Part shown: one piece after another, positions 1,832-20,134 of the stretch | Layout of the letters: the number at the start of each line of letters is the position of its first letter | Numbering within the stretch: position 1 is the stretch's first letter | Origin: Nitrosopumilaceae archaeon | GTDB lineage: Archaea; Thermoproteota; Nitrososphaeria; Nitrososphaerales; Nitrosopumilaceae | Length of the DNA: 64,000 bases | Direction: 5' to 3' | NCBI GenBank assembly: GCA_965207375.1 | Contig: OZ242274.1 | Coordinates: 608,001 to 672,000, forward strand | The notes under the pieces: model-generated | What the model was told of the DNA's origin: nothing | Database searches by the model: none | The model's input: only the letters and a program-made list of their open reading frames with translations | Made by a program: the position numbers and the translations under genes

Positions 1832-2047
1832 AAGTTTACAATAAAATTTCTAGTATCTAAATCGTTTTGGTAAAGCAACAGCGATGCACTGAATACAATC
1901 TTTTGCTCTCTTCTGTCCAACAAGAGTGGGCAATCTAGACTGGATATAAACAGGTAAAACCCATACGTCCGTATACTAGAATCCTTGTAAGTGTTTACGT
2001 CGTGAACACATGATAACCACCCCTGCGCTGTACTAGTGATGAATCGA

Positions 2048-2144
2048 CCCCTGATTAGGTATGGGCTATGCGCCCTTGGTCGTGAATGGGGCAATCCGAG
2101 CTGCTGTGTAATTGGGCTACGCGCCCTGATAGATGTGTGCAGCT
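2048..2144 (+). ncRNA. Predicted bridge/seek RNA core of IS110 element A (target and donor loops)
   Basis: Two loops closed by CCCC/GGGG and AGCTGC/GCAGCT, each with a GGGC-TAYGC-GCCC hairpin flanked by segments matching target and donor junctions; transcript ends unknown. Confidence 0.75.
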
Positions 2145-2185
2145 TCCGATCCGTCAAAACATCCGTAAGGAGGTGAAAAGAAAGG

Positions 2186-3277
2186 ATGAAAACATACATT
2201 GGAATAGACATTGGAAAGAAAAAGTGTGACGTATGCGTCATAAATGGTACAGGACGAGTACTTGAGACCTGTCAGTATATGAACACGGTAGCAGATGCTA
2301 AAAAGTTTGCAGAAACCATGGCACGAAAATACACGGGAAATAAAAAAACATGCAGTGCTGCATGTGAAACTACAGGCAACATGTGGAATGTTACCTATGC
2401 TAAATTTGAGGCAGCAGGTATACCAATCAAGCTTGCAAATACGTACAAGATGGCCATAATTGCCAAGACTGGTAAAAAGACAGACAAGGTGGATGCACAA
2501 AAGATAGCACAGGTATTACGAATGGATATGATTCCAGAATGTTATGTACCAAAACCGGACATACGAGGAATACGTGCAATGATACGACAGCATATCAAGA
2601 TAGTACATGATAGGACACGAGTGATAAACAGAGTACGCAGTCTTTTAGACAGACATGATGTCTCAATTGATACAGTACAAGTATATGCAGTAAAGACAAT
2701 GCAGTATCTAGAGTCTGTATCTCTTGATGAAATACATGATGAAATAATTCTGCAGCAATATGTCCGACAGATCAGACATCTGACCGAAGAGTTGACCAAA
2801 ATGAATGATTACATAGAACAAGAGGCAGCAAACAACGAGTATGCCAAACTATTGACAAGCATGACAGGGATGGGAACATATACTTCATTGTTGCTAGCAG
2901 TCGAAATTGCAGACATTTCAAGATTTGATAATCCAAAGAAACTTGTTGCATGGGCAGGTCTGTGTCCTACCATACACCAGTCAGGAGATCAAAAATATCT
3001 TGGAAGGATGAAGAAACTAGACACCAACAGTATAGTGAATTGGGCAATGTGCGAGGCAGCAAATGTGGCAGTAACACATGACCCTAGGATGAAATCAATA
3101 TACGAATCTGCAAAAAGGCGACATGCAGACAAGCATGCACTTGCAGTTGTTGTAGTTGCAAACAAGATGATAACAATATCATGGCACATTCTGAACACAA
3201 AGACACCATATTCGTCACACAATACAAGATTGTATCAGCGCAAGCTTGCTAAATTGGAAAAGGCACGTCAGAAATGA
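2186..3277 (+). CDS. IS110-family DEDD recombinase/transposase
   Basis: GIDIGK, ACET and KTDKVDA (DEDD) plus GLCPTIHQSG serine motif; GGAGGTG SD-like sequence upstream. Confidence 0.95.
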   Translation: MKTYIGIDIGKKKCDVCVINGTGRVLETCQYMNTVADAKKFAETMARKYTGNKKTCSAACETTGNMWNVTYAKFEAAGIPIKLANTYKMAIIAKTGKKTDKVDAQKIAQVLRMDMIPECYVPKPDIRGIRAMIRQHIKIVHDRTRVINRVRSLLDRHDVSIDTVQVYAVKTMQYLESVSLDEIHDEIILQQYVRQIRHLTEELTKMNDYIEQEAANNEYAKLLTSMTGMGTYTSLLLAVEIADISRFDNPKKLVAWAGLCPTIHQSGDQKYLGRMKKLDTNSIVNWAMCEAANVAVTHDPRMKSIYESAKRRHADKHALAVVVVANKMITISWHILNTKTPYSSHNTRLYQRKLAKLEKARQK

Positions 3278-3479
3278 TTTGTACCTGTCAAATCCGGTAT
3301 TAAGCTTGCTAGCGTTAGCTATAAATGATATACTAAATAATTAGGCACGGAACGGAAACGCAATAGGGATACATCAAGGTACGCGCCGGGGTGGTTAACA
3401 TAGATGCCTAGATTTTGACCATTTACGATCAAATTTTTGGCAACATGATCTAAATGAGGTCAAATAGCCAAACCATACA

Positions 3480-4889
3480 TTGACAGATTTCAAAAAACTC
3501 TACAAAGCCGAACGAACTAAGAATCTAAAACTCGAACAGATGATGGAGTTGAAAGATGCCATGATCCAAAAAAAAGATGACAACGAAAAAAAACTAAAAG
3601 ATCTAGTAAAGGAGTTAGAAAACAACATACACAATTTGAAAACTATTGCCACTGATCTTAATAAAAAACTCCAATTTTATGATAACGCACACACTCCACC
3701 ATCACGCAAGATGCCAGAAAAGAAGAAAACTGATAATAAAAACAAGGATAAAAACAAGAAAACAACAGGTGAGCGAGGAGCACCAAAGGGACACAAAGGT
3801 GCAACAAGCAAGCCAAAACCTACAAAATTCAAACAACACACGCCAGCAAAATGTCCAGAGTGTGGCTCAAAAGATCTTAAAATTATCAAAACACAGATAC
3901 GTGACATTACAGAAGTACCGCCACAGGTACAACCTGAAACAACACGTCATCATGTAGATTTGTGCTCATGCAAAAACTGTGGCAAAAAAGACATAATCCC
4001 AGAGACTGATTTTCCTACAAAAGGCAATTATGGCAACAATATAGTAACACAGGCAGTAGCAAATTATATCGACAGACTACCTCATCGCAGAAACGCAGAA
4101 GCACTGACCTTGAGGGGAATCAAAATATCTCCAGCTTCTGCACACAACATAATAACCATGGTTGGTGCGTGCCTAACGGCACCCACAAAACAACTCCTAA
4201 AGGCAATCAGGGCTGCAGTCCTGTTACACATAGATGAGACATCAATACACCTAAACGGCAAAAACGTATGGGCGTGGGTATTTTACATTCCAGGTACAAA
4301 TACTGCACTGTATGTGGTACGGCCTAGCAGGGGAAGAGACGTACTCGAAGAGATACTAGGAGATGACTGGAAGGGAACAATCATCTGTGACGGACACAAA
4401 CCGTACATGGTATATGATATCCAGAGATGTTGGGCTCACATCATGCGTGAGATGCACCACGAGACACAAAAATGTGGATGTAAAAAATGTCTGGGTGCAC
4501 AAGAGGCTCTCAAGAAAATATATGAAGATGCAAAAGATACCATAACTGCACGTATCTCGTATAAACGGCGCAAAAAAATACGGCGCAATCTGTATCGTCG
4601 TGTAAAGAGAATTATTAACACATACACTCCATTGCACAATCTCAAAAGATTCATGGGAAAGCTGGGACGAGCCCTACCAAACCTGTTCAGGTTTGTGCTG
4701 GATCCTACCATACCTCCTACCAACAATACAGCAGAACGTGCACTGCGTGAGATTGTTGTACACAGAAAAATACGTGGTGGAATCAGATCCGAAAAAAGCA
4801 TGGAGACATTGGGCAATTTGTTTTCATGTGTGATGACTTGGAGAAATGCTGGATTAAATTATCTAGAAGAGATGGCAAAATACCTCTAG
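3480..4889 (+). CDS. tnpC: IS66 transposase TnpC
   Basis: Coiled coil, CPECG...CKNC zinc finger, HIDET / ICDG / QRCWAH / NNTAERALR motifs. Confidence 0.93.
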   Translation: MTDFKKLYKAERTKNLKLEQMMELKDAMIQKKDDNEKKLKDLVKELENNIHNLKTIATDLNKKLQFYDNAHTPPSRKMPEKKKTDNKNKDKNKKTTGERGAPKGHKGATSKPKPTKFKQHTPAKCPECGSKDLKIIKTQIRDITEVPPQVQPETTRHHVDLCSCKNCGKKDIIPETDFPTKGNYGNNIVTQAVANYIDRLPHRRNAEALTLRGIKISPASAHNIITMVGACLTAPTKQLLKAIRAAVLLHIDETSIHLNGKNVWAWVFYIPGTNTALYVVRPSRGRDVLEEILGDDWKGTIICDGHKPYMVYDIQRCWAHIMREMHHETQKCGCKKCLGAQEALKKIYEDAKDTITARISYKRRKKIRRNLYRRVKRIINTYTPLHNLKRFMGKLGRALPNLFRFVLDPTIPPTNNTAERALREIVVHRKIRGGIRSEKSMETLGNLFSCVMTWRNAGLNYLEEMAKYL

Positions 4890-4968
4890 AGACGTAAAAA
4901 CCACGTTAACACTTACAAAATAACTATTGTAGACTAGGTATTTATTCACGCCTGCAAAATACGGTGTT

Positions 4969-5637
4969 GTGAAGTATTACGTCACAATTTTCGTCCTTAC
5001 AATGTTAGTATGCGTGCCCGGATTTGCCCAAGAAATCAATCCCTCGTTGAATATAATCCCCGTTGAAATTCCAGCTGACGCATTTAATGTGGTTGCAAGA
5101 GATTCTGTCATTGTATCACTTGATGAGTTACAGCAAACAAGCTGGCAGGTCACCTTGGATAACGATCTTTTATATTCAAATCCGCAAGGTAATGCAGTAA
5201 TTCGATTATACGACAATGATAGACAAGACACCTTTATTGAAGTAGGAATGGGCAGTCCCCCTCAATACTCTTTTTGGGTTGCAGTACAGCTGCCAGAGGA
5301 AGGCTATGTTCCAATTTATAATGATTTGGAGCGGGGATGGAGCACCTCATCAAAAACAATCGTATCTTATACTGACAGGGCAGGCCTTACTGTCAACAAC
5401 GGGGCAAGAATTGTAGTTACCAATTTGGACATTGACGTTTTTGCAATCGACAGTTATTCGGTACACGGAAAACAAAGCTCAACTGATCCCCCAGCAATAA
5501 ATTCTGGCATTTATAGTGCCGAGTTTTTGTCAGGCGATCCATCTCAAAATATTTTCAGCCTATATCCATTCATTTTGGCTGCAGCTATAGGAATCCTAGT
5601 AGGTGTCTTGTTTTTAACTAAGAAACGCTCCTCTTAA
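4969..5637 (+). CDS. Hypothetical exported protein with C-terminal membrane anchor
   Basis: Signal-peptide-like N-terminus; C-terminal hydrophobic helix followed by KKR. Confidence 0.7.
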   Translation: MKYYVTIFVLTMLVCVPGFAQEINPSLNIIPVEIPADAFNVVARDSVIVSLDELQQTSWQVTLDNDLLYSNPQGNAVIRLYDNDRQDTFIEVGMGSPPQYSFWVAVQLPEEGYVPIYNDLERGWSTSSKTIVSYTDRAGLTVNNGARIVVTNLDIDVFAIDSYSVHGKQSSTDPPAINSGIYSAEFLSGDPSQNIFSLYPFILAAAIGILVGVLFLTKKRSS

Positions 5638-6268
5638 AATAACTACAGTTTTTGCTTATTTTGCAGACATCACACATCGGTGAGACAGGCTTGCATATGT
5701 TTTGTCCATACATTACAAATGTATCGTTGATATCGATCCAGAACTTTTTAGGAATCTTTTTCATCAACGCCTGCTCTGTATCCTCGGGATTTTTTGTTTT
5801 GACTAGTCCCAATCGGTTAGAAATTCTATGTACGTGAATGTCAACTGGAATGGCAGGTTTTTCAAACGCATAAACTAGCACGCAGTTTGCAGTCTTTCTT
5901 CCCACGCCGGGAAGTTGTATCAATTTTTCAAGATTTTCAGGCACCACTCCGTTATATTGGGTGTGAATTACTCTTGCAACCTCTATGATTCTTTTAGATT
6001 TTACGTGATAAAAGCCAATTGCCCTAATTACCCTTTCAACATCTTTTATTTTGGCAGCCGCCAAATCCTTTGCGGTGGGATATCGTTTGAACAGCTCCTT
6101 TACAACCTTGGTAGTGCTTTCATCTCTAGTTCTTGCAGAAAGAATGGTTCCTATCAAAATACTAAACGGGCCGCCGGTTTCAGCCTCGTGCAGCTCTCTT
6201 AGTGCCGTCATTCTTGGCGGTTTTACAGAATTCATAGTCTTGTGCATTCCATCAAGAATCCGTTTCAT
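5618..6268 (-). CDS. nth: Endonuclease III
   Basis: HhH LPGVGRKTAN, VDIHV and C-x6-C-x2-C-x5-C FeS motif. Confidence 0.95.
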   Translation of the reverse strand: MKRILDGMHKTMNSVKPPRMTALRELHEAETGGPFSILIGTILSARTRDESTTKVVKELFKRYPTAKDLAAAKIKDVERVIRAIGFYHVKSKRIIEVARVIHTQYNGVVPENLEKLIQLPGVGRKTANCVLVYAFEKPAIPVDIHVHRISNRLGLVKTKNPEDTEQALMKKIPKKFWIDINDTFVMYGQNICKPVSPMCDVCKISKNCSYFKRSVS

Positions 6269-6307
6269 ATTTCAAAAACCAACCATACAAGTATTATATC
6301 TGTCACT

Positions 6308-7480
6308 ATGAGTTGTTGCGTGGAATTAACCAAACAAGAACAGGCCGCACTAAACGGCAAGTATGGTCAAGTCCAGCAACTAGCTTATAGAATTTTAGCT
6401 GCCACAGGCGAGGCAACTGACGCTGAAAGATTAATTCCAATTAAATGGGCACATCTTTCTGGCGTAAATTACAACACAATCGGTGATGCAGGAGAAGAAT
6501 TCCTCTCTAACTTGAGCAAAAACCCAGACGCACGTGTCAGGGTCAGAACAACTCTGAACCCCATGGGATTTGACAATGATACAGTTTCAGATTACAATCT
6601 AGATGAAAATTTCATCTCAAAACAGCTCAGTATCCGGGACTCTTATGAAACAATGGGAGTAATTCCATCCTTTTCGTGTATTCCGTATGAAATATTTGAC
6701 ATTCCAAAGGCTGGAACGCAGGTTGCCTTTGCAGAAAGCAACGCAGCCATTTATGCAAACTCTTTTGATAATCTAAAAACAAACAAGGAAAGCGCCTTTA
6801 GTGCATTGGCAAGCGCATTGACCGGAAAAAGTCCGTATTCTGCACTACGAAAAAATGACACTTCAGACATTACAATACAGATGAGGGTGAAAAATCCAGA
6901 CGAGCTTGCATATGGAATGTTGGGATTTTTTGCAGGCAAGGTAGGAAACAACTCTGTGACAATTTCTGGCGTATCTGATATGGATCGACGAAGCTGTAAA
7001 TCGATGTGCGGCGGCATGGGAACCTCTGGAACGTGCGCAAAATTTGAATTTGGAGCAGGCTCTGCTGATTCTGAAAAGATTGATTTTGACCAAAAGGAGA
7101 TGCAAAATGTCTACGATGAGCTAAATACTGCAGAAAAAGGCGACATCATAACACTAGGTAGTCCACAGCTTGGATTAGAAGAAATGCATGACCTGTCTTC
7201 CATGTTGCAAGGCAGATCATTTTCTAAAAACTGTCTCATCTTTTGCCCCAGATCCGTGCAGGAGCAGGCCACGCATCTAGGATATACCAATGAAATTAGA
7301 CGTGCAGGAGGTCAAATACTGTCTGACTGTTGTACGTGCTTGACCCCGTTAATTGATCCTGACAAAATTGATGCAGTTACGACCAACAGTATCAAGGGAG
7401 GCTATTATCTAAAAAACTCAACCGGGGTAGATGTAAATCTCAAACCGCTGTCACAAATTATCAAAGAAGAAACAAAATGA
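6308..7480 (+). CDS. Aconitase X catalytic subunit (DUF521; probable phosphomevalonate dehydratase large subunit)
   Basis: TTLNP, SCIPY, AESNA, GSPQ, DCC and TNS.K motifs; start adjusted to 6308. Confidence 0.8.
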   Translation: MSCCVELTKQEQAALNGKYGQVQQLAYRILAATGEATDAERLIPIKWAHLSGVNYNTIGDAGEEFLSNLSKNPDARVRVRTTLNPMGFDNDTVSDYNLDENFISKQLSIRDSYETMGVIPSFSCIPYEIFDIPKAGTQVAFAESNAAIYANSFDNLKTNKESAFSALASALTGKSPYSALRKNDTSDITIQMRVKNPDELAYGMLGFFAGKVGNNSVTISGVSDMDRRSCKSMCGGMGTSGTCAKFEFGAGSADSEKIDFDQKEMQNVYDELNTAEKGDIITLGSPQLGLEEMHDLSSMLQGRSFSKNCLIFCPRSVQEQATHLGYTNEIRRAGGQILSDCCTCLTPLIDPDKIDAVTTNSIKGGYYLKNSTGVDVNLKPLSQIIKEETK

Positions 7481-7860
7481 AGGTAATTGTAAAGGGATGC
7501 GCAACGGATAAAATCCTCAAATCAGATAAACCAATTAATTTTCTTGGAACCGTTGACAAAAAAACAGGTCACATACAAGACAAAACGCACCCGTTATACG
7601 GCAAATCCGTCAAGGATTCTGTTCTTGTCTTTCCTTACGGTGTGGGTAGCAGTGTGGGTGCATATACCATATACTCACTAAAATCTAACGGCTGTGCACC
7701 TTCGGCGATGATCTGCAAAAAGGCAGATCTTACCGTTGCAACAGGATGTGCACTAGCAGACATCCCCCTAGTTCTGATAGGTGATGATGACTTTACCGGA
7801 TTAAATCCGGGACAATGTGTCAAAATAAATACAGAGTTAAAATCTATAATTCTTGTCTGA
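7477..7860 (+). CDS. Aconitase X swivel subunit (DUF126)
   Basis: FLG.VD..TG and FPYGVGSSVG motifs; ATGA overlap with the large subunit. Confidence 0.85.
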   Translation: MKVIVKGCATDKILKSDKPINFLGTVDKKTGHIQDKTHPLYGKSVKDSVLVFPYGVGSSVGAYTIYSLKSNGCAPSAMICKKADLTVATGCALADIPLVLIGDDDFTGLNPGQCVKINTELKSIILV

Positions 7861-8440
7861 TTTGCCCGTTTGGGCTAGTTTCTGCAAAAATGACTCCTTG
7901 AAATTTTAGTATCTCTGTATCTGCATCCTTCCAGCAATCTTTTTGCAGTCCTGACTTTTTGCAGGTATGCTCCAAAAACTCAACCGCGCTCCAATTATAT
8001 TTCACAGGCACCTGTGGTAGCAACAATCCGGAATTAAATCCATTTCTTACAACTAGTCCGTCCCTGCTCACTCTGATTTGATCCAGATATTGTTGGGCTT
8101 TTTCGACTTGAATTATCTTGGGTTCTGATAGTATGGTTACCTCAAAGGTAATCTCATCTAACTCTTCAATGCTAACTGTGGGAAATCTAGGATCACTTGT
8201 AGCTGCAGAAATTGCTGCCTCCTTTAGAGCAGAAGACAGGACTTTATCAGGAAATGGATATCCGATGCATCCTCTGAGACTGTTGTTTTTGTTCAGTGTG
8301 ACAAATACTCCAGAGGGATGTGCAAATTTTTCTAAAAATTCCTTGTTTTGTGATACAGTTTCAGATTTTGTCAAAAAATCCACTACTGATTTTCTTGCCT
8401 GCTTTACAAGCATTGCACCGTCCTCACTTGATACCTTCAT
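7844..8440 (-). CDS. AMMECR1 domain protein
   Basis: GVFVTL, LRGCIG, DPRF and GLLLPQV motifs. Confidence 0.92.
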   Translation of the reverse strand: MKVSSEDGAMLVKQARKSVVDFLTKSETVSQNKEFLEKFAHPSGVFVTLNKNNSLRGCIGYPFPDKVLSSALKEAAISAATSDPRFPTVSIEELDEITFEVTILSEPKIIQVEKAQQYLDQIRVSRDGLVVRNGFNSGLLLPQVPVKYNWSAVEFLEHTCKKSGLQKDCWKDADTEILKFQGVIFAETSPNGQIRQEL

Positions 8441-10349
8441 TTTGACCGTCTCCTAATTCGGTTATGTGTGATCCTCCTGCAGGCAAAACACGTACAAATT
8501 CGTCAAGGGGTATTGTTCTAGCAATATCTTGATGAATCTTTGTAAATTCCAGCTTTATCCTTTTTGCAGCTTCTGCCATGTCTCCACTAGAGGGCTCTAT
8601 TACTGCATAACACAGGCATTTATGCTTGATTGGTTCTAGAGGTCCGCATGTCAACAAATAATTTTCATCATACTGCAAAATTCCAACTGCAAGCTTTAGG
8701 GTTGCAATCTTTACTGCATTTCTTTGCCCTTCTATTATGAAAGATCCCTTTGCTAGAAACTGTCCACTCGGAGCTGCCTTTTTGATCTGTTCTGGAACGA
8801 CCCAATACGCCCCCATTCCGTACATTGCCTCCCTCCAAGCTCTACTAAAACAGACTGTTGCATGAGCCACCTCATTTAAGCTAGAGGTAGTAGCATCTGT
8901 TGCATTTTTTAAAATAAAAAACGGTGAGCCAAAAATTTCGGCATGAAAAACCTTGTCATTTTTTTCCAAGTGTTTTCGAATTACTGCTGAATTTGAGGAA
9001 GAGTCGCGTCCCCCTATTGCAATCATGTTATCTGATGTGAAAAACCAGCGATATCTTTGAAACCAAGTACGCTTTATGATCTCGTTGAATCCAATCTCTG
9101 TCTCGCTGTTTAGTGACTGGTTCTTTAGTTTCTCAATTTTTGCTTTCGTTTTTGATTTTTGTGATTCAATTGTAGATACTGCGTTTGCCTGTTTTTTTGA
9201 TTCATTAAACAGGGCAGATGCAATTGCCTGCAATGACGACTCTGCTTTGATTTGAATTTTTTCATCCTCAATTTTGATATGTGGAACACCCTTTATCGTG
9301 ACTAGTTCTGCATCTTGCTCTTTTAGCAGGTCGACTGCACGCTTGTCCTGTATTGATAATATTCCAATAGTGACAAATCTCATGATTTCCTTTGCTATTG
9401 CAGATATCCTGTCGGCTCTGCGTAAAACCGTCTCTATTGCCTTTGTCTGTTCTTCTAATTGACTATTATATTCCTCAATTTTTTTATTGCTGGCACTAGA
9501 CTGCATTTGTTTTCCTTCATCAATGATGTCTTCTGTAAATAATTGATCTAGACCCTCCATAAACGAGCTTACCGATTCTGTTGCGTCACTTGTCGGAATA
9601 CGTATCGGATAGATTTCTGAAACTTCCTTTCTCCTAACAATTATTGGTGTGTGTTTGCCGTCTATGATGTCGCTTACTAAATTATTTGTTGTACAAAATA
9701 ATTTTTTTATTTCTTGTGACGAAAGTGTATTGGATTCTTTTTTTGGATCCATTTGGGCCTGATTGAAAATTTCCTCAGCATACTTTTTTGGAAATCCAAG
9801 ATTCTTTCCAATCCATCTAACTGCCTCTGTTTGTGCATTTGATATCTCGTTGAATTGTTCTTCTTTGATATCGAAAATATTTAGACTGTTGCTTGGGGGG
9901 GCAACATACTTTAAACCAACTGAAAGTTTTCTGTGCCGTACATCAATTGAATGCAATAAAGCCAAAATTTTCATATCCGAATTACATAAAATTATATTCC
10001 CATCCCCAAATAACTCTGCAACCAAAACAAACTCTTTTTCAAAATTATTAAATGTCATATATGCGATACGTTCTGCACCTATCTGCTCAACTTTGATTAT
10101 TTTGGCACGAAGCAGGTCATTGCGCAATCGCTTCAACAGCCTGTTTGGCTCGATTGGATCAATTTTTTTTGTTGTAGTCCAGATACCTGATGTTGAGAGC
10201 ATCATAAACACATCTGGCTTTTCTGGATGATGCAGCTTGAACAGTAGACTGCTCCTTGTTATTCCGTATATGTTGCTTACATAGTAACCGCTGGAAATCT
10301 GTCCTATCTGATTTACCAAATATCGCAGTTCTATACCTGCAAGATTCAT
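8424..10349 (-). CDS. Rqc2/NEMF-like ribosome quality control protein (NFACT domains)
   Basis: ELFGDGNIIL, WFQRYRWF, GGRD and SGQFLAKGSF motifs. Confidence 0.9.
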   Translation of the reverse strand: MNLAGIELRYLVNQIGQISSGYYVSNIYGITRSSLLFKLHHPEKPDVFMMLSTSGIWTTTKKIDPIEPNRLLKRLRNDLLRAKIIKVEQIGAERIAYMTFNNFEKEFVLVAELFGDGNIILCNSDMKILALLHSIDVRHRKLSVGLKYVAPPSNSLNIFDIKEEQFNEISNAQTEAVRWIGKNLGFPKKYAEEIFNQAQMDPKKESNTLSSQEIKKLFCTTNNLVSDIIDGKHTPIIVRRKEVSEIYPIRIPTSDATESVSSFMEGLDQLFTEDIIDEGKQMQSSASNKKIEEYNSQLEEQTKAIETVLRRADRISAIAKEIMRFVTIGILSIQDKRAVDLLKEQDAELVTIKGVPHIKIEDEKIQIKAESSLQAIASALFNESKKQANAVSTIESQKSKTKAKIEKLKNQSLNSETEIGFNEIIKRTWFQRYRWFFTSDNMIAIGGRDSSSNSAVIRKHLEKNDKVFHAEIFGSPFFILKNATDATTSSLNEVAHATVCFSRAWREAMYGMGAYWVVPEQIKKAAPSGQFLAKGSFIIEGQRNAVKIATLKLAVGILQYDENYLLTCGPLEPIKHKCLCYAVIEPSSGDMAEAAKRIKLEFTKIHQDIARTIPLDEFVRVLPAGGSHITELGDGQNEGIK

Positions 10350-11549: not shown

Positions 11550-11564
11550 TTGGTTAGATCAGTC

Positions 11565-12285: not shown

Positions 12286-12298
12286 AATCTATTTTTTA

Positions 12299-12355
12299 GT
12301 AAGTGTTAACGTCATGAACACATGATAACCGCCCTAGCGCAGGTTAGTGGTGAAT
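12299..12355 (+). mobile_element. Remnant of IS66 left end fused to IS110-A left end
   Basis: GTAAGTGTTAACGTCATG-AACACATGATAACC...GTGAAT aligns with 1987-2044. Confidence 0.85.
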
Positions 12356-12470
12356 TTCCATCTACTGAAATTTATATGGATTCGTCAAAAATATAATTTC
12401 ACATGTACCATTATTCCAAATATTTCTTGCAATAGTTTAGATTTTAACTAGGAAAAATACAATGTTTTTC

Positions 12471-13193
12471 ATGCCAGGATTGATTGGAATCGGTGTGGGT
12501 CCAGGAGATCCTGATTTACTTACAGTCAAAGCAGTCAAAGCCATACAAAATGCCGACATTATCATGTGTCCTGCCTCAAAACAAGACAGACCAAGCATTG
12601 CACTATCCGTTGTAGAATCATTAATTGACAAATCTAAAAATCAGCAAATCATCAAGCTCATATTTCCCATGACAAAGGACAGAGACGTACTTGAGGCGAC
12701 TTGGAAAAAAAATGCAAAGATAATGGCAGAAACTGTATTATCTGGAAAAAACGTCGTGTATCTTACAGTAGGTGATCCATATTTGTATAGCACATGGATC
12801 TACATGCACAAGGATCTCACCGAAAATTATCCTGACATGCAAATTAGTGTCATTCCTGGTATTGTTTCAATGTTTACCTTTGCATCCAAGATAGGCGTTA
12901 GTATTGCAGAGGGTGCTGAAAAGGTGGCCATCATTCCATCCTGTTATGACCTGTCATCGGTAAAACAAATTGCAAAAAATTCTGAAACGCTGGTATTTCT
13001 AAAGGATGGCAGATATTTTGATCAGGTAGTAGACTTGCTAAAAGAATCAGGGTTTGCAGATGATTCTATCTTTGCAATAGGTCAAGATCTGGGTACTGAA
13101 AATGAAATTATTAAAAAGCTTACACTAGGCGAGGTCACAGACGGCACATTGACTACAAAGTATTTTTCAATCTTGGTGGTAAAGCGTGCCTAA
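12471..13193 (+). CDS. cbiL: Precorrin-2 C20-methyltransferase
   Basis: GIGVGPGDPDLLT, FPM, GDPYLYST and YFS motifs. Confidence 0.92.
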   Translation: MPGLIGIGVGPGDPDLLTVKAVKAIQNADIIMCPASKQDRPSIALSVVESLIDKSKNQQIIKLIFPMTKDRDVLEATWKKNAKIMAETVLSGKNVVYLTVGDPYLYSTWIYMHKDLTENYPDMQISVIPGIVSMFTFASKIGVSIAEGAEKVAIIPSCYDLSSVKQIAKNSETLVFLKDGRYFDQVVDLLKESGFADDSIFAIGQDLGTENEIIKKLTLGEVTDGTLTTKYFSILVVKRA

Positions 13194-13956
13194 AGTCTTT
13201 TTTGTCGGATGTGGCCCAGGCGATCCCGATCTTATTACAGTAAAGGCCAAAAAACTAATTCAAAGGGCAGACATTGTAGTCTATTCTGGCTCCCTGATTC
13301 CAGACAAAATCCTAAAAATGTGCAAACGGGGAAAATTATATGATGCATCAAGGCTGGTCAGGGAAGAAATTTTTGACATTCTTTACACAAATGCCAAAAA
13401 AGACAAACTTGTAATTCGCCTGCATGACGGCGATCCATGCATTTATGGTGCAATACGTGAACAAATTGACAATCTAAAAACAAAGGAAATAGAGTCTGTT
13501 ATAGTTCCAGGCATCACTGCATTTTTGGCATCTGCTGCCGCACTAGCAACTCAGCTTACCCTTCCTGCTGTAACCCAAACCATCATTGTAACTAGGGCAG
13601 AATCACGTACCAAAGTTCCAAAACGCGAACAAATCTCAGAACTTGCAAAGCACAAAGCCACCATGACGTTTTACCTGAGTGTACATTTGCTATCTGATAT
13701 CGTAAAGCAGGCAATCAGGGGCGGATACAAAAAAGCTACACCCGTAGCCGTAGTGTACAGGGCAAGCTGGCCTGATCAAAAAATTATAACCGGAACACTT
13801 GATGATATCGCAAAAAAAGTAAGAGATCAAAAAATTACCAAGACCGCAATTGTGATTGTAGGCGACGTAGTAAAACCTACCTCATATGAGTATTCAAAAC
13901 TTTATGACAAGACATTTAGTCACGGCTATCGCAAGGCAAAATCTAAAAAGAAATAA
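13186..13956 (+). CDS. cbiF: Precorrin-4 C11-methyltransferase
   Basis: GCGPGDPDLIT, YSGSL, RLHDGDP, ASWPD and SKLY motifs. Confidence 0.92.
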   Translation: MPKVFFVGCGPGDPDLITVKAKKLIQRADIVVYSGSLIPDKILKMCKRGKLYDASRLVREEIFDILYTNAKKDKLVIRLHDGDPCIYGAIREQIDNLKTKEIESVIVPGITAFLASAAALATQLTLPAVTQTIIVTRAESRTKVPKREQISELAKHKATMTFYLSVHLLSDIVKQAIRGGYKKATPVAVVYRASWPDQKIITGTLDDIAKKVRDQKITKTAIVIVGDVVKPTSYEYSKLYDKTFSHGYRKAKSKKK

Positions 13957-14695
13957 CTTTATTTTTTATCTTTAATTTTTTCAGATTGTTTTCAAATGTC
14001 TCATTTTTTCCGGTTACGTAAATCCTTAGCCTGTTTTTTGTCATCGGTTTGATTCTTTTAGAAATGTTTTTTGCAATGTTATCTGCAGGATCTAAAAATC
14101 TGACACCTGGAAACTGTCTTGCCAAATAATTTTCCAAAAAAGGCAAATGTGTACTAGACAGTGTTGCCGCATCAATTTTTTTATCTTCGATTATTTTTGC
14201 AAGCGTTTCATTAATTGTTTTTTTGGTTTTGTCTTTGTCGTTTAGAAAATCTCCAGACTCTACTAGATCTACAAGTTTTGAACAATTGATTTTATACACG
14301 TTTGTGTTCTTTGGCAATTTCATTTTGATGACATAATGTGACAACTCCCTACTTGCAACTGCAGCTTTTGTAGCTAGTATTGCAATATTTTTTGTCTTTG
14401 AAATTTTAACAGCCTGCTTTAGCGGCGGCAATACCTTGAATGTGTTTTTAGATCTTATATTCAAAATAATTGATGGCGTGTTTGAGCCAATTATGATAAA
14501 ATCTGGTCCAAATTTCTCCCTTATTTCCTTTATAGTTTTTTGGATAATTTTTGCAAGCTCTGATTTTGATTTGTTTCCATATGGAAAGCTTTTATGATCT
14601 GCAAAATAGATGATTTCACACTTTGTATTTTTCTGCAATGCCTTAATTATTGATAATGAACCAAGCCCCGAATCAAAAACTGCAATTTTTGCCAA
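13943..14695 (-). CDS. Glutamate racemase (MurI)-like protein with Ser at both catalytic positions
   Basis: FDSGLGSL, D...PYG.KS, GSNT and SSTHLP motifs. Confidence 0.8.
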   Translation of the reverse strand: MAKIAVFDSGLGSLSIIKALQKNTKCEIIYFADHKSFPYGNKSKSELAKIIQKTIKEIREKFGPDFIIIGSNTPSIILNIRSKNTFKVLPPLKQAVKISKTKNIAILATKAAVASRELSHYVIKMKLPKNTNVYKINCSKLVDLVESGDFLNDKDKTKKTINETLAKIIEDKKIDAATLSSTHLPFLENYLARQFPGVRFLDPADNIAKNISKRIKPMTKNRLRIYVTGKNETFENNLKKLKIKNKVISF

Positions 14696-14804
14696 TACTC
14701 TAGTTTTATCTAAAATCTGGAGATAATATTGGTTAGCTAAATTTAGCCTAAAGTTGATCTAAATATACACCCCCCATTAAGAGTAGATTTCTAAACAATT
14801 CATC

Positions 14805-15455
14805 ATGCCAAACTTTGACAAGAGTTGGGCTCGTCAAGAGACCCAAGGTGTAGGAAGCAAATTTCGTGAGGCAGTAAAGCCACAGGGTGCCTTAAAACCA
14901 CGCATCCAGACTGCGGTAAACAAGTTGCAGGTCCAAATATCCAAGATGGATTCCATGCTTACAAAACTACGTGAAAGAGATGCGCAACTCTTTCAGAGAA
15001 TTGTAGCTGCAATGCAGCAGCATGATACCTCGGCCAGCAAGGTTTTATCTAACGAATTAGCCGAAATACGCAAAGTATCAAAGATGCTTGGCAACGCAAG
15101 AATGTCACTTGAGCAGGTTCAAATGAGATTGACTACTATTCATGATCTCGGTGATGCAATGGTTGCAATCGGTCCAGCAATGTCAACAATGAAGGGATTA
15201 AAGTCATCGCTAGGACGGTTCATGCCAGAAGCAGATTCTGAGTTAAACTCCATGACACAGACACTTAATGGCCTCATGATGGACTCTCTTGCAGGAGATT
15301 CATTTAACATGGATTCTGATGTCTCAACTGAAGAGACCGATAAGATTCTACAGGAAGCCTCCGCAGTTGCTGAACAGCAGATTGGTGATAAATTCCCGTC
15401 TGTACCAACTCCAACCGGACGTTCGTCTGAAACATCTACTTCGTCATTTGAGTAG
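14805..15455 (+). CDS. ESCRT-III/Snf7 family protein (CdvB paralog)
   Basis: Basic coiled-coil N-terminus, ELAEIRK, acidic C-terminus with ILQEA. Confidence 0.85.
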   Translation: MPNFDKSWARQETQGVGSKFREAVKPQGALKPRIQTAVNKLQVQISKMDSMLTKLRERDAQLFQRIVAAMQQHDTSASKVLSNELAEIRKVSKMLGNARMSLEQVQMRLTTIHDLGDAMVAIGPAMSTMKGLKSSLGRFMPEADSELNSMTQTLNGLMMDSLAGDSFNMDSDVSTEETDKILQEASAVAEQQIGDKFPSVPTPTGRSSETSTSSFE

Positions 15456-15663
15456 ATTGTAAAAAGACGTCTGTCATTCTTTTTGTTTTTTGGATTATCT
15501 TTAGACATCATCTGAATCTGGGTTTTTAGAAATACTAGTCCAAACGGTATAAAATCTGGACATTTTTCACATAAACTATTGCAAGTTTCTGTACCCTGTC
15601 AATCTTTTTAGGATTCAAACTCTAGTCCGTATCTGTCAAGTGTTACATAAAATCAGATTTTTT

Positions 15664-15762
15664 GTATTTGCCAACGTTATTCTGAATTTATGGTAATTAA
15701 ACATGAAATTACTTTGCCGTCAAAAAATAGAATAAAAATTTAGGCGTGACGTTAACACTTAT
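15664..15762 (-). mobile_element. Second copy of IS66-derived MITE (about 99 bp, diverged)
   Basis: Reverse complement starts ATAAGTGTTAACGTCACGCCTAAATTTTT; the other end GTATTTGCCAACGTTATTCTGAATTTATG matches the right end of the 11565 MITE. Confidence 0.75.
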
Positions 15763-15811
15763 ACAGTTTAGAATCACGTGCACAATCTGTAAAAACACCA
15801 ATACTTGAGAG

Positions 15812-17275
15812 TCACGGATATGCCAACTCTTTAACTAGCAAGGAATCAACATCTGAAATTTTAACTCTAGACTGTTCCATAGAGTCTCGCCTTCTTATCG
15901 TTATTGTGTGATCCTCTAGTGTCTGATGATCAACTGTTATTGCAAATGGACAACCAACTTCATCTAATCTGCGATATCTCCTACCTATTGCTCCTGAATG
16001 ATCCAAGAACGCATCAACCTTTGTTCTAATCTCTTTAAAAATCTCGTCTGTCTTTTCTTTTAATCCATCCTTTTTTACTAGCGATAAAACTCCTACATGA
16101 ACCGGAGACAGGTATGGTCGCAAAGCAAGATAAATCCTTTCATTTTCAGCGTCTTTGTGTATGCAGTGTTCCAAAATAGTGTACAAGCTACGGTCTATTC
16201 CCATTGAGATTTCAAATACATGTGGCAAAACTTTTTGTTCATCATCCATCACCTCAAACTTTTCCTTGCTTTTCTTTGCGTGATTTGCCAAATCATAATC
16301 TGATCTATAATTACACGCTACAAGCTCAAGCCATCCTGTTGTTGTTTTGACTTCAAAATCAAAGGCAACTTTTGCATAAAATGCCTTTTCTTTGTCTCCC
16401 AATTTCCTAAATCTGCTTTGAGTCATATCAATTCCGGTCTTGCTGTAAAATTCGGCCAAAATTCCCAAATAATAGGCCACAAATTTGTTTGGAACCAAGC
16501 CTGTATCTATTGCCTGCTGACATGTAACCTGTTTTAATTCCGAATCCGTCTGTATCTGGATTTTTGTATCTTTGACCTCGTCAAACTTTTCTAATTCATC
16601 TAGCTTTTGTGGATTGCAAAACACCTCTATTTCTGCCTGATAAAATTCCCTTAATCGAAGCAAACTCCGCCTAGGCGCTATCTCGTTTCTAAAACTTTTT
16701 CCTACCTGTGCAATACCTTGCGGAAGTTTCCCCCTCATTATCTTGAACAATCTTGGAAAGTCAACAAAAATTGATTGGCATGTTTCAGGTCTCAAATATG
16801 CAGGTTCACCCTCTGGACCAATTCCTACCTGAAACATCATGTTGAATTTTCTCGTACTTTCAAAATCACCCTTACATTTTGTACACTTGATGTTATTTTC
16901 TAAAATCACCTTGTCAAATTCTGCACTATCTGCACTTTCAGGAATCTCAATATTGAAATTCTCTAAAATCATTCTATCTGCTCTAAATGTTGCCTTGCAC
17001 TTTGTACATTTTACAATTGGATCTGCAAAACTTGCAAGATGCCCTGATGCCTCAAACACTGATTTGGACATAATCTGGGATCCGTCAATCTCAAGCATGC
17101 CATCACGTCTGACCAATTCACGCCTCCACAGCTCCAAAAACTTGTTTTTCATACTTACACCGGGTGGACCATATTCCCAAAATCCTGCTTGTGCGTCTCC
17201 ATAAACCTCACAGCTTGGAAAGTAAAACCCTCGTTCTAGGGCAAGCTTCATCACATCATCATATTGCATGGACAT
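15812..17275 (-). CDS. glyS: Glycyl-tRNA synthetase (homodimeric type)
   Basis: SGH..F.D, YLRPET, GKSFRNEI.P and LRLREFYQAE motifs; anticodon domain IGRRYRR.DE. Confidence 0.95.
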   Translation of the reverse strand: MSMQYDDVMKLALERGFYFPSCEVYGDAQAGFWEYGPPGVSMKNKFLELWRRELVRRDGMLEIDGSQIMSKSVFEASGHLASFADPIVKCTKCKATFRADRMILENFNIEIPESADSAEFDKVILENNIKCTKCKGDFESTRKFNMMFQVGIGPEGEPAYLRPETCQSIFVDFPRLFKIMRGKLPQGIAQVGKSFRNEIAPRRSLLRLREFYQAEIEVFCNPQKLDELEKFDEVKDTKIQIQTDSELKQVTCQQAIDTGLVPNKFVAYYLGILAEFYSKTGIDMTQSRFRKLGDKEKAFYAKVAFDFEVKTTTGWLELVACNYRSDYDLANHAKKSKEKFEVMDDEQKVLPHVFEISMGIDRSLYTILEHCIHKDAENERIYLALRPYLSPVHVGVLSLVKKDGLKEKTDEIFKEIRTKVDAFLDHSGAIGRRYRRLDEVGCPFAITVDHQTLEDHTITIRRRDSMEQSRVKISDVDSLLVKELAYP

Positions 17276-17435
17276 TACTGATTTTTGGTTAGTAATTAAA
17301 TGCTAAGATCAAGTCATCAGACACTCAAATTTATAGTGGTCTTTACCATCAGTATCTATGTGCAGTCTTAATAAAGACTTGGTTGGATTTTGCTAGTTGG
17401 AGTATGACTTTCACTAGAACAATACTTTTTCAAAA

Positions 17436-17562
17436 ATGAAGGTCGGAAATGTATCTATTCGGGCATTAAATCCCAGTACCATGCTTCATCCATTCATTAG
17501 GGTCAAAGTGTAGTTAGTTCCCCGGGCATCGAATCCCATACTGTGATCACACAAATCCCTAA
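17436..17562 (-). ncRNA. Predicted bridge/seek RNA core of IS110 element B
   Basis: Loops closed by TTAGGG/CCCTAA and ATGAAG/CTTCAT, each with a GGGATTYRATGCCC hairpin; flanking segments CAGTA, GGAACTA, ATGGT and ATAGATA match the junctions. Confidence 0.75.
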
Positions 17563-17578
17563 CCATAATGATATCATC

Positions 17579-18787
17579 TCAACTTCGCAGCTGACGTGCA
17601 GTGCTCTTTTGTCCCTCCTTTATACACGTCTCAAAATCAATCTGTTTAATCAACATCCAAAATACACTTTTTAATAATTTGGCAGCAGCTGCTACCCTGG
17701 CCTTTGACCTCCCACGCCTTTTTGCAAGACGTTTGTAAAACACACTAACAGGCGTATATGATTCCCTTTTCTCGGTGACTGCTAGATGTGTAACTACTGC
17801 CTCGACAAGTGCGTGTCTTACTAGAGATGCGCCCATCTTTGTTATGTGTCCATGATGGACAGTATCTGCAGAACGTCTAACTGATGGAACCAATCCAAAA
17901 TACGATGCCAGATGATCTTCATCAGAAAACCTTGCAATATCATCTATTTCAGAAGACAACACAAGTGCAGTATAGTTGGCTATTCCGGGTATCGTGGTGA
18001 GAAGTTGTGCGTTTTTATCCTCCTGTACCTGTTGTTTGATTTGCAGGTTGGCATACGTGATACTGTCTGTAACAGAGGCTAGATTCTTTAGATGCTGGTC
18101 TATTCTCCAGTTGTTTAGCTGGAGCAGTCTCTTTGTATATGGTCCACAAAACGGCGTTCCAGGTATGTCAATGCCTTCCTGTAACAAGATTCCGTGTATC
18201 ATGTTCTTAAAGCGAGTAGACTCTTGGACCATCTTGTGTCTGTATCTGACAAGCTGTTGCTTTTTTACAGTGTTTTCATCTGGTACATGGCATGCTGCAA
18301 CATAATCTCCACGCAGGAGGTCTGCAAGTATTTGCGCATCTACCTTATCTGTCTTCTTTTTAGACTCTGCAATGAGCCTTGTTTTGTATGGGTTAGATAA
18401 TGTTACGTCTAGTTTCAGCTTATCTGTGAGCATACGGTATATGCCGTACCATACAGATGATGATTCTAGTACGTATTTTGCATTCTTTGGCATTTTGGAA
18501 AACGCCTTTTTGATTGCAACCGGATTGCACTCTATCCTGCGGTTCTCATGCACCTTGCCGTCTTTATCCATTACTGCGACCTGCATGAATTTTTTGTGTA
18601 GATCTATTCCAACAAAGTATTTGGGTTTGGTTTTGGGGGTGTTGTTTTGGCCTGTCTTAGATGTCTTTACCTTTGAATTTGTTTTTTTGACAGACCTCAC
18701 ATTTTTTGGATTTTTTTTGCATAATCTGTTTGTTTGCTTTTTGGTAGCATTACCGGTACCATCTAAACCAGAGTTTTTTCGGGGCAC
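17579..18787 (-). CDS. IS110-family DEDD recombinase/transposase
   Basis: GIDLHK, VLES, KTDKVDA and GLVPSVRRSA motifs; start codon uncertain (Lys-rich N-terminal extension). Confidence 0.93.
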   Translation of the reverse strand: MPRKNSGLDGTGNATKKQTNRLCKKNPKNVRSVKKTNSKVKTSKTGQNNTPKTKPKYFVGIDLHKKFMQVAVMDKDGKVHENRRIECNPVAIKKAFSKMPKNAKYVLESSSVWYGIYRMLTDKLKLDVTLSNPYKTRLIAESKKKTDKVDAQILADLLRGDYVAACHVPDENTVKKQQLVRYRHKMVQESTRFKNMIHGILLQEGIDIPGTPFCGPYTKRLLQLNNWRIDQHLKNLASVTDSITYANLQIKQQVQEDKNAQLLTTIPGIANYTALVLSSEIDDIARFSDEDHLASYFGLVPSVRRSADTVHHGHITKMGASLVRHALVEAVVTHLAVTEKRESYTPVSVFYKRLAKRRGRSKARVAAAAKLLKSVFWMLIKQIDFETCIKEGQKSTARQLRS

Positions 18788-18816
18788 ATATGGTTAGTTC
18801 CGATTTTAAATCCAGA

Positions 18817-19974
18817 TCACGTCGATTTATTGGGGGGCGGCCAAGTTGAATGACACTCAAAATATGCATGAGCCATCTGCATTACAAAGGCTACAAGTGT
18901 AATATTGTATGTCTGATGGGCAACCTCTATCCGCGAATCTATCCATATGTTAGATAGGATTACAGCTACGATAAACATCAGCATCCGCATTGAGGAATTC
19001 TTGCTTGTGGTGTATGGACGTATAGATTTTACCTGCTTGTATCCCGTCTCAATCCCCCATCTCTTTTTGTATGCTTCAGGAATGTATTTCAACATGTCAT
19101 CAGAATCTGTACACGGAAGCGATGTTGCAAACACATGATATCTCTCAAAGATATTTTTTGCATCAGGTTTTTTGGGATTTGGTACTATGATCAAATTAAA
19201 TTCAAATCCATTATCAAAGGTATACTGTGATATTGCATCGCGCTTTCCTTGGGCATATTGAGATATTGCCTTTTTGATTCCCGCATTCTTTACTGCAGGC
19301 ATTATGAAATGTTTTTTGAGATTCTGTATTGTATCCATAACATCAGATGCATAAAACTCGCGGTCCAACAAGTATATGTTCACATCAGCACCCAAATTAT
19401 CGCATTTTTGTATGGTTTTACGCACGAATTCAGGGTTAAACTTGTTCCGAGTTACTGGAACCATTGCAAGATGAAATTCTTTTGCACCTGAGACCATCTT
19501 GGCAGTCATGTATGCTTCAAAGACGTATGTTCCTGCATGATGCTTTGAGTATACCATATCTGTCATGTCAGGGTCTTTGTCATAGTGTGGGATCTTGTGT
19601 TTGTCTATTGCTGCAACGCGCGTCTGGTTGTTGCCGTTTCTGCGGTCCAGCTTCATTTGGCGTACATCAACAGTATCGTGTATCATCTTTTCTCCATGTT
19701 TTATCATGTCGTCATGATCGATTGGGGTTATCTTTTGTACAAGCCAGTCTCCGCCTGGAATATCTATTCCTGAAGGAGCGTATTGGTGTGCACTGTTGGC
19801 AGCCACGCCGTATACTGACATGACCTGTAGCATGTTGACTGCGTTTGAGAGTCCATACCTCGTGTTGTTTCCTGTTCCAAACGAAATGGGCAGCCTGCCT
19901 AATGCAGATTGAAATACTTTAAACCCTCGTGTTCCGGATTTTATTGGGATATCTTGCCCATCTTTTTCTCTCAA
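18817..19974 (-). CDS. ISH3/IS4-like DDE transposase
   Basis: AAID, LLDREFY and Y-x2-R-WGIE motifs. Confidence 0.88.
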   Translation of the reverse strand: MREKDGQDIPIKSGTRGFKVFQSALGRLPISFGTGNNTRYGLSNAVNMLQVMSVYGVAANSAHQYAPSGIDIPGGDWLVQKITPIDHDDMIKHGEKMIHDTVDVRQMKLDRRNGNNQTRVAAIDKHKIPHYDKDPDMTDMVYSKHHAGTYVFEAYMTAKMVSGAKEFHLAMVPVTRNKFNPEFVRKTIQKCDNLGADVNIYLLDREFYASDVMDTIQNLKKHFIMPAVKNAGIKKAISQYAQGKRDAISQYTFDNGFEFNLIIVPNPKKPDAKNIFERYHVFATSLPCTDSDDMLKYIPEAYKKRWGIETGYKQVKSIRPYTTSKNSSMRMLMFIVAVILSNIWIDSRIEVAHQTYNITLVAFVMQMAHAYFECHSTWPPPNKST

Positions 19975-20134
19975 GGTTAAGATGGGTAGGATTATTCCGT
20001 TATTTGGATCGGTATGTCAAAAAATATTGTCTAAATAGTGACCTGTGATCTATAATCGGAACTACTGACCATACATGTAATTGCCCAATCCTAATAATGC
20101 TCAATTGTCTAGTTTTTTCAAATTCTATCTTTTT

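What the first reader, a model, noticed from the sequence alone, without database searches (positions are those of the whole stretch)
1987..20072. Two archaeal RNA-guided IS110 recombinases, each apparently programmed to hit the end of a different insertion sequence
Seen: element A sits 18 bp inside the left end of an IS66, and element B sits 3 bp inside the TIR of an ISH3-type element. Both share a layout: right end ACATAGA plus a 2-nt core (TG or TA), 6 nt from the left core to a sub-terminal IR, and a two-loop RNA. Each loop is [reverse complement of right arm]-[GGG...CCC hairpin]-[copy of left arm plus core]. The guides differ between A and B in step with their different targets. The RNA is 5' of the recombinase in A and 3' in B. 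Established: IS110/IS1111 elements use bridge/seek RNAs, and bacterial IS4321/IS5075 target Tn21 TIRs. Inference: this is an archaeal set of IS-on-IS parasites that may also restrain DDE IS activity, and a natural pair of reprogrammed bridge recombinases. I cannot confirm novelty without a search.
Basis: partly seen in the sequence, partly recalled or inferred. Interest (0 to 1): 0.93.

Follow-up and report, generated by a model that had tools for sequence, protein, structure and literature searches.

The report
Guide-RNA transposons nested in transposon ends
Two small RNA-guided jumping genes in an ammonia-oxidising archaeon carry guide RNAs that match the end repeats of two other jumping genes, and each sits exactly at that site; this is a clear natural example of a mechanism already known from bacteria, not a new one.

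Summary
Element A (window 2003-3404, + strand) splits the left inverted repeat of an IS66 after 16 bp plus a TG core. Element B (17355-18796, - strand) splits the inverted repeat of an ISH3-like element 3 bp from its tip. Uninterrupted IS66 and ISH3-like copies in the same genome give the empty sites with a single core.

Both encode IS110-family DEDD recombinases and a two-loop RNA. The RNA lies 5' of the gene in A and 3' in B. In all four loops the 6-7 nt that end in the core copy the left target (or the element's right end), in one fixed register.

Near-identical copies carry changed guides that fit other targets. A4 has four guide bases changed and sits in a MITE. B3 has one base changed and matches the other ISH3-like end variant. 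Guide and target covary across homologues in related genomes.

Repeat layout (7+3 nt extensions) and guide order are those of the IS1111 group. A is the rarer form with an upstream RNA. Landing inside other transposons and natural reprogramming are already published for bacterial IS4321/IS5075 and ISEc21/ISMch6. This scan also reported similar cases on other DNA. Restraint of the host IS elements is untested and looks weak. Verdict: new members of a known kind.

The parts
1987..2002 (+). Outer 16 bp of the IS66 left terminal inverted repeat; this is the left target arm of element A
   Evidence: The same 16 nt run straight into TG-CCTAGA in uninterrupted IS66 copies.
2003..3404 (+). Element A, an IS1111-type IS of 1402 bp counted with the left TG core. 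The second core copy is at 3405-3406.
   Evidence: Four copies share these ends. Length 1402.
2010..2023 (+). Left sub-terminal inverted repeat of A. It pairs with 3388-3401 (14 bp, 1 mismatch). Extensions are 7 nt on the left including the core and 3 nt on the right.
   Evidence: for positions; alignment read by eye.
2036..2157 (+). Bridge/seek RNA of A. Closing helix: 2036-2044 with 2147-2155 (window positions are my conversion of columns 39-47/149-157 of alignment A2). Target loop 2048-2091: right guide UUAGGUA 2055-2061, cap hairpin 2062-2076, left guide plus core GGUCGUG 2078-2084. Donor loop 2098-2146: UGUGU from 2105, cap 2113-2127, AUAGAUG 2129-2135.
   Evidence: (34 pairs, 9 with compensatory changes among 8 sequences).
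2186..3277 (+). Recombinase of A (363 aa)
   Evidence: PDB hits ISCro4 9t56 (E 1.1e-15) and IS621 8wt6 (E 5.1e-14), with the SG serine region aligned.
3388..3406 (+). Right end of A: sub-terminal repeat, AGA, and TG core
3407..4916 (+). Rest of the interrupted IS66, with transposase ORF 3480-4889 and right TIR ending at 4916
   Evidence: PF03050; NF033517, 237.5 bits against cut-off 180.
17345..17352 (-). Target duplication ACCAT (17345-17349) and the last 3 bp (CTG on the - strand, 17350-17352) of the ISH3-like TIR; the CTG is the right target arm of B
17355..18796 (-). Element B, an IS1111-type IS of 1442 bp counted with the left TA core at 18795-6. The second core copy is at 17353-4.
   Evidence: B2 at C1:1528332-1529806 is 99.7% identical.
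17430..17573 (-). Bridge/seek RNA of B. Target loop inside stem 17557-62/17497-502: right guide CACAGUA 17539-45, cap 17523-38, left guide plus core GGAACUA 17515-21. Donor loop inside stem 17484-90/17435-41: AUGGU within 17476-82, cap 17460-75, AUAGAUA 17452-58.
   Evidence: (16 pairs, 5 with compensatory changes among 9 sequences).
17579..18787 (-). Recombinase of B. This is the longest open frame; the DEDD domain starts at residue 59, so the true start is probably further in.
18797..20067 (-). Rest of the ISH3-like element, with transposase ORF 18817-19974
20054..20067 (+). The other TIR of the same ISH3-like element. It is an unoccupied site that matches B's guides perfectly (GGAAC-TA-CTG). 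The ACCAT duplication follows at 20068-72.

Best explanation
A and B are two distantly related IS1111-type members of the IS110 family. Each encodes a DEDD recombinase and a two-loop guide RNA (bridge RNA / seekRNA).

One loop reads the target. [quoted passage not shown] Its 3' side copies the left arm plus core, so it pairs with the bottom strand. The other loop reads the element's own joined ends in the same way.

The inferred cycle is that the element excises as a circle with its ends abutted, and the RNA-recombinase complex then recombines the circle junction with the target at the 2-nt core (TG for A, TA for B). This leaves one core copy on each side and no other duplication.

A's target guides spell a site 16 nt inside the IS66 left inverted repeat. 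B's spell the last bases of an ISH3-like inverted repeat. Repeated, mobile and selectively neutral IS ends therefore serve as landing pads.

Shown here: anatomy, empty sites, guide-target matches in register, retargeted sibling copies, and covariation among homologues. Inferred: that the RNA is made, circle formation, catalysis, and any effect on the host IS.
For: Anatomy and empty sites.
- A's four full copies share identical ends and sit at related sites; uninterrupted IS66 copies show the empty site.
- B1, B2 and B4 share the left flank AATCGGAAC-TA. B1, B2 and B3 share the right flank TA-CTG. Uninterrupted ISH3-like copies end ...GTA-CTG.

Register. In all four loops the core ends 9 nt after the cap hairpin. 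The preceding 4-5 nt copy the left arm.

Retargeted siblings.
- A4 is 98% identical to A1 but has UUUUUUGUG where A1-3 have UUGGUCGUG. It sits at ...GATTTG-TG-CCTAAA in an ~85-bp MITE.
- B3's guide is GGAAGUA where B1/B2 have GGAACUA. That is exactly the difference between the two ISH3-like end variants.

Homologues.
- A-type, 8 elements from 7 genomes: the left-guide/left-arm diagonal scores 33 of 40, and only 1 of 40,320 permutations reaches it. The right guide with wobble scores 30 of 40, reached by 12 of 40,320.
- B-type, 13 elements: 39 of 65 against a permuted mean of 19.2, reached by 2 of 200,000 permutations.

Structure. Compensatory changes are seen in stems and cap hairpins.

Proteins. 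Both are homologous to the solved bridge recombinases ISCro4 and IS621.

Published rules. Guide order (top-strand match 5' of bottom-strand match), sub-terminal repeats and 7+3 extensions fit the published IS1111 rules (PMC11187229, sections 4 and 9 read).

Recent activity. A1/A2 and B1/B2 are 99.6-100% identical and have intact frames.
Against: - No RNA run holds this organism, so expression is unknown. No circle junction was seen; only assembled contigs were available.
- A's left target guide matches 6 nt, not 7.
- In both donor loops the 5' side does not pair with the core, only with 5 nt further in (read).
- Some homologues fit poorly. L048's right arm scores 0 of 5 and L047's left arm 3 of 5. 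Of 13 B-type elements, 8 score 3 or fewer of 5 on the left arm.
- Kin are not independent: A1/A4, L076/L096 and L078/L098 share RNAs.
- The B-type alignment is not structure-consistent in the target-loop cap, so that hairpin is read by eye only.
- Three perfect IS66 sites and one perfect ISH3-like site stand empty.
Confidence: 0.85

Rival explanations
1. Host-beneficial or 'hyperparasite' reading. The IS1111-type elements are kept because, by splitting inverted repeats, they immobilise IS66, ISH3-like and MITE elements and so restrain them.
For: Four lineages in this genome sit in IS or MITE ends: A, B, C and D/F. A split TIR plausibly cannot be used by its transposase (inference; recalled to have been argued for IS4321/IS5075 in Tn21 ends, paper not held).
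Against: Occupancy is low. One of 8 full IS66 copies is hit and 1 of the 10 near-identical IS66-2 left ends. Perfect targets remain empty. Relatives in other genomes mostly have other targets: a DDE transposase lies within 1.4 kb at only 3 of 13 homologue loci. Landing in repeated neutral DNA explains the pattern without any benefit to the host.
Confidence: 0.12
2. Protein-only or DNA-structure recognition. The recombinases recognise the inverted repeats directly, and the RNA-like matches are incidental or are DNA-level binding sites.
For: There is no direct evidence for the RNA here. Some homologues have weak left-arm matches.
Against: Guide changes track target changes in 98%-identical copies. 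Covariation is seen across homologues at 40-67% protein identity. Compensatory stem changes are present. Homologous enzymes are shown experimentally to need the RNA (PMC11208160 passages; PMC11187229 sections read).
Confidence: 0.03
3. Chance nesting of dead elements in an IS-rich region.
For: A3 carries a stop codon. B3 and B4 are chimeric or truncated.
Against: The same position and orientation recur in independent copies, and matching empty sites exist. A1/A2 and B1/B2 are 99.6-100% identical with open frames.
Confidence: 0.01

Closest known systems
IS1111-group elements with seekRNA: ISEc11, ISKpn4, ISPa11 (Siddiquee et al. 2024, PMC11187229)
   Same: DEDD recombinase; sub-terminal inverted repeats; 7-nt left and 3-nt right extensions; top-strand match 5' of bottom-strand match. 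B has the RNA downstream of the gene, as these do.
   Different: The host is archaeal (a Nitrosopumilaceae relative). B's sub-terminal repeat is only about 6 bp against the usual 11-13. A has the RNA upstream, which that paper reports only as an exception (ISMtsp17).
[quoted passage not shown]
   Same: An IS1111-type element that inserts at a fixed point and in a fixed orientation inside another transposon's terminal inverted repeat.
   Different: Those are bacterial, with Tn3-family targets. Here the targets are IS66-family and ISH3-like ends and MITEs in an archaeon, and several lineages do it in one genome.
ISEc21 / ISMch6 (IS110 group; PMC11187229 section 12)
   Same: ISEc21's natural target lies inside other IS elements (IS3-family transposase genes). 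ISMch6 is a natural retargeting with three changed guide bases.
   Different: Guide order is reversed there (IS110 type). The target is a coding region, not a terminal repeat.
IS621 / ISCro4 bridge recombinases (PMC11208160; PDB 8wt6, 9t56)
   Same: A two-loop RNA that reads target and donor around a 2-nt core; homologous protein.
   Different: [quoted passage not shown] Here it is on the 3' side. No Rfam family matched.

Membership tests
IS110 family (DEDD RNA-guided transposases) | N-terminal DEDD/RuvC-like domain plus C-terminal Transposase_20 domain | tested here: met
   PF01548 and PF02371 in both. NF033542 at 223.8 and 217.9 bits against cut-off 140.
IS110 family (DEDD RNA-guided transposases) | Conserved serine in the G--P----SG finger | tested here: met
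   A reads GLCPTIHQSG. B reads GLVPSVRRSA, so the serine is kept but G is replaced by A. Both align to ISCro4 ...ESG.
IS110 family (DEDD RNA-guided transposases) | Site- and orientation-specific insertion with no duplication other than the core | tested here: met
IS1111 group | Sub-terminal inverted repeats (usually 11-13 bp) with about 7 nt left and 3 nt right extensions | tested here: met
   A: 14 bp with 1 mismatch, extensions 7 (including core) and 3. B: extensions 7 and 3, but the repeat is only about 6 bp (rule from PMC11187229 section 4).
IS1111 group | Long non-coding region downstream of the transposase gene | tested here: inconclusive
   Met by B (about 220 nt 3' of the gene). Not met by A (RNA 5' of the gene). 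The source paper lists such exceptions (PMC11187229 section 6).
IS1111 group | [quoted passage not shown] | tested here: met
   Seen in both loops of A and B, and in D. Rule from PMC11187229 sections 4 and 9.
IS1111 group | Transposase groups with IS1111-type transposases in a tree | not tested
Bridge RNA / seekRNA | Guides covary with target and donor across relatives | tested here: met
Bridge RNA / seekRNA | The RNA is transcribed, binds the recombinase and is required for movement | not testable with these tools
   No RNA holder was listed.
IS66 family (target of A) | IS66-type DDE transposase and GTAAG... terminal repeats | tested here: met
   PF03050. NF033517 at 237.5 bits against cut-off 180. 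TIRs at 1987 and 4916.
ISH3 family (target of B) | Transposase reaches the curated ISH3 model cut-off | tested here: not met
   NF033541 is the best hit, but at 137.1 bits against a cut-off of 225. I therefore call it ISH3-like. A 5-bp duplication and a 14-bp TIR are present.

The most novel reading that the evidence does not exclude
In Nitrosopumilaceae, IS1111-type elements form a guild of RNA-guided 'transposons of transposons'. They repeatedly rewrite a few guide bases to hop between the end repeats of IS66-family, ISH3-like and MITE elements, and measurably immobilise them. The A-type clade keeps IS1111 ends and guide order but has its RNA upstream. It would then be a living intermediate for how the guide RNA moved between element ends. 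Both types would be switched on only as circles, by an archaeal TATA box in the right end that fires across the junction.
Probability: 0.2. Interest if true: 0.6.

Novelty: new member of a known kind. Interest (0 to 1): 0.42.

Why it matters
One genome supplies clean natural experiments for bridge/seek-RNA targeting in an archaeon.
- Sibling copies 91-98% identical differ in one to four guide bases, and their targets differ in step.
- Empty sites are available for each target.
- There is an IS1111-type clade with the RNA on the unusual side.

These give ready-made guide and target pairs for testing archaeal, possibly salt- and cold-adapted, bridge recombinases. They also show that IS ends and MITEs are favoured landing pads beyond bacteria. 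The finding does not change the known mechanism.

Tried and rejected
- Rfam: no family matched 1500-20500 at E<=1.
- Single-sequence folding gave no signal: z -0.35 for A and +0.54 for B. Structure rests on the comparative data instead.
- RNA evidence: no RNA holder was listed, so this says nothing about expression.
- Contigs of runs X1, X3, X4 and X5 showed no end-to-end circle joint for A or B. Contigs cannot show one.
- A hand-drawn full structure for the B-type RNA was not counted, because alignment A4 is offset by one column in the target-loop cap.
- Is IS-end targeting general in the lineage? Only 3 of 13 homologue loci have a DDE transposase within 1.4 kb. For L050, the left flank is unique and the first 28 nt of the right flank recur at only two other places in its genome. 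I therefore rejected 'all relatives target IS ends'.
- Literature: searches for earlier descriptions of IS110/IS1111 elements in Nitrosopumilaceae or Thaumarchaeota, or nested in archaeal IS ends, found none (passages of PMC13343696). Supplements were closed and may list such elements.
- PMC219399 (IS4321/IS5075) is not held.


Full report
What is there.
The window is G000:C1:608001-672000 of a 4.3-Mb, 4-contig genome. Its relatives that carry similar elements are titled Nitrosopumilus sp. MAGs (L104 has the same coordinates as L045 of G041). I therefore call the host a Nitrosopumilaceae-family archaeon. Two ORFs, 2186-3277(+) and 17579-18787(-), carry PF01548 and PF02371. Both pass NCBIfam's 'IS110 family RNA-guided transposase' model. 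They match the solved bridge recombinases ISCro4 and IS621. Next to them lie an IS66 transposase (3480-4889) and an ISH3-like DDE transposase (18817-19974). The latter scores below NCBIfam's ISH3 cut-off.

Boundaries and empty sites.
Element A has four full copies in contig C1, and all share the same ends. In the window the junctions are 16 nt of IS66 left TIR, TG, AACAC on the left, and ACATAGA, TG, CCTAGA on the right. There are 8 full-length IS66 copies, and only the window's carries A. Of 13 IS66-like left ends listed, 3 read exactly ACGTCG-TG-CCTAGA without interruption. These are the empty sites, each with a single TG.
- A2 sits at the same point of an IS66-derived miniature element.
- A3 sits in a related MITE whose empty homologue is at C1:306402.
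- A4 sits in an ~85-bp MITE family with IS66-like ends.
Element B lies between AATCGGAAC-TA and TA-CTG. Removing it restores the 14-bp TIR of a 1,276-bp ISH3-like element (17350-20067), which is flanked by the duplication ACCAT. B2 is 99.7% identical and sits at the same point of the opposite TIR of another, truncated copy. Two uninterrupted copies end ...GGAAGTA-CTG.

The RNAs.
Upstream of A's gene and downstream of B's gene lie two stem-enclosed internal loops, each capped by a near-identical small hairpin. The rule is the same in all four loops. The 5' side is the reverse complement of the (core plus) right arm. The 3' side copies the left arm plus core, and the core ends 9 nt after the cap's CCC.
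- A target loop: UUAGGUA pairs with TGCCTAG (two G.U pairs), and GUCGUG copies the left arm plus core.
- A donor loop: UGUGU pairs with ACACA, and AUAGAUG copies the right end plus core.
- B target loop: CAGUA, and GGAACUA.
- B donor loop: AUGGU, and AUAGAUA.
Three of the four 7-mers are present exactly. A's target match is 6 nt. Each 7-mer would appear in 1.1-3.6% of shuffled non-coding regions, and neither element holds the other's words.

Natural retargeting within the genome.
A4 is 98% identical to A1 but has UUUUUUGUG where A1-A3 have UUGGUCGUG. Its left flank ends GATTTG-TG, whereas A1-A3's end ACGTCG-TG. B3 is 91% identical and is a chimera with a C-like 5' part. It has GGAAGUA where B1/B2 have GGAACUA. 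That is the single-base difference between the two ISH3-like end variants.

Relatives.
A-like proteins occur in 33 of 201 sampled family genomes at E<=1e-20. B-like proteins occur in 21 of 201 at E<=1e-40 (both counts include G000).
- A-type: I examined 8 elements (A1, A4 and 6 homologues that I picked's loci because their ends were readable). The 5 nt before the core match between guide and own left flank at 33 of 40 positions, and only the true pairing among 40,320 permutations reaches this. The right guide pairs at 30 of 40 positions, reached by 12 of 40,320 permutations.
- Poor A-type fits: L048's right arm scores 0 of 5, and L047's left arm 3 of 5.
- B-type: 13 elements give 39 of 65 against a permuted mean of 19.2, reached by 2 of 200,000 permutations. 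Eight of the 13 score only 1-3 of 5.
- Kin are not independent, so these figures overstate the evidence.
- Consensus folding gives 34 pairs for the A-type, 9 with both sides changed. It gives 16 pairs for the B-type, 5 with both sides changed.

Classification.
Siddiquee et al. (PMC11187229; abstract and sections 4, 6, 9, 12, 13 read) define the IS1111 group by several features: sub-terminal inverted repeats, 7-nt left and 3-nt right extensions, a usually downstream non-coding region, and a top-strand match 5' of the bottom-strand match. IS110-type elements such as IS621 have the reverse order (PMC11208160, passages read). Both A and B have the 7+3 extensions and the IS1111 order. B also has the downstream RNA. 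A has it upstream, which that paper lists as a rare exception. The same paper reports natural retargeting (ISMch6) and an IS110 member whose target lies inside IS3-family elements. It cites IS4321/IS5075 as targeting Tn21-family inverted repeats, and it states that IS1111 elements are abundant in archaea. The kind is therefore known.

How far the IS-on-IS idea goes.
In this genome two more lineages behave alike.
- C is B-like and sits G plus TA inside the left TIR of a second IS66-family element. That element has 10 near-identical (99-100%) left ends among the 14 hits, and 1 of the 10 is occupied.
- D and F sit at AATA-GA-GTTAATTT of the MITE. D's upstream RNA holds GUAAUAGA and AAUUAAC. E has a changed left guide that fits its own flank over 5 nt.
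Elsewhere, only 3 of 13 homologue loci have a DDE transposase within 1.4 kb. L050's target is not an obvious IS end. Occupancy of the host IS copies is low and perfect sites stand empty. I therefore read IS ends as convenient repeated landing pads rather than evidence of restraint.

Earlier notes of this scan.
First-reader notes on this genome describe the same elements, and I re-derived their claims here. Follow-ups on other genomes had already filed IS110 elements inside an IS607 MITE, MITE hairpins and a palindromic mini-element as known-mechanism cases. The scan has thus found this kind before on other DNA.

Verdict.
The mechanism reading is well supported by sequence evidence but lacks RNA or activity data. 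These are new archaeal members of a known kind, with useful natural retargeting pairs.

Noticed in passing
window 3308-3327 (+); window 17367-17376 (-): TATA-like boxes in the right ends that point outward. A-type has ...GCTAGCGTTAGCTATAAAT about 80 nt before the end, conserved in homologues. B-type has an 8-nt TTATAAA-like box ending 14-15 nt before the end in most homologues. They could drive the RNA and recombinase only across a circle junction, as bacterial junction promoters do.
   Followed up: partly
window 18722-18737 (-): The motif GCAAACAAACAGATTA in B's short left end is conserved at the DNA level in homologues whose proteins share only about 50% identity. Its role is unknown; it may be a leader peptide, a binding site or part of an RNA.
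   Followed up: no
G000:C1 about 355648-357080 (-): Element C, a B-like IS1111-type element. It is inserted G plus TA inside the left TIR of a second IS66-family element, one of 10 near-identical left ends listed. Its right end carries a 51-bp tandem duplication.
   Followed up: partly
G000:C1 1769626-1770958 (-), 2084645-2085972 (+), right end at 999345 (-): A third lineage (D, E, F) with an upstream RNA and a GA core. D and F sit in the ~85-bp MITE 11-13 bp from A4's site. D's guides match its flanks over 8 and 7 nt. E has a different left guide.
   Followed up: partly
G000:C1 about 484245-484330: A MITE copy carries only the last 11 nt of A's right end plus the core, exactly at the A4-type target. 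This looks like a deletion remnant of a former insertion.
   Followed up: no
G000:C1 555713-556203 and 1740058-1740203; window joint 2069->2121 in run X4: A-like relics have lost the 51 bp between the two identical cap hairpins, which fuses the target and donor loops.
   Followed up: no
window 17344->20068: One contig of run X1 (depth 36, against about 150-170 nearby) joins the flanks without the ISH3-like element and B. A relative in X5 also lacks them. The flank on one side is only 25 nt, so this is a weak hint of insertion polymorphism.
   Followed up: no
window 1987 and 4916: The interrupted IS66 has no matching 8-bp duplication at its two ends (GAATCCTT on one side, AAAATAAC on the other). 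Contigs also join 4885 back to 1500. This suggests a rearrangement between IS66 copies.
   Followed up: no
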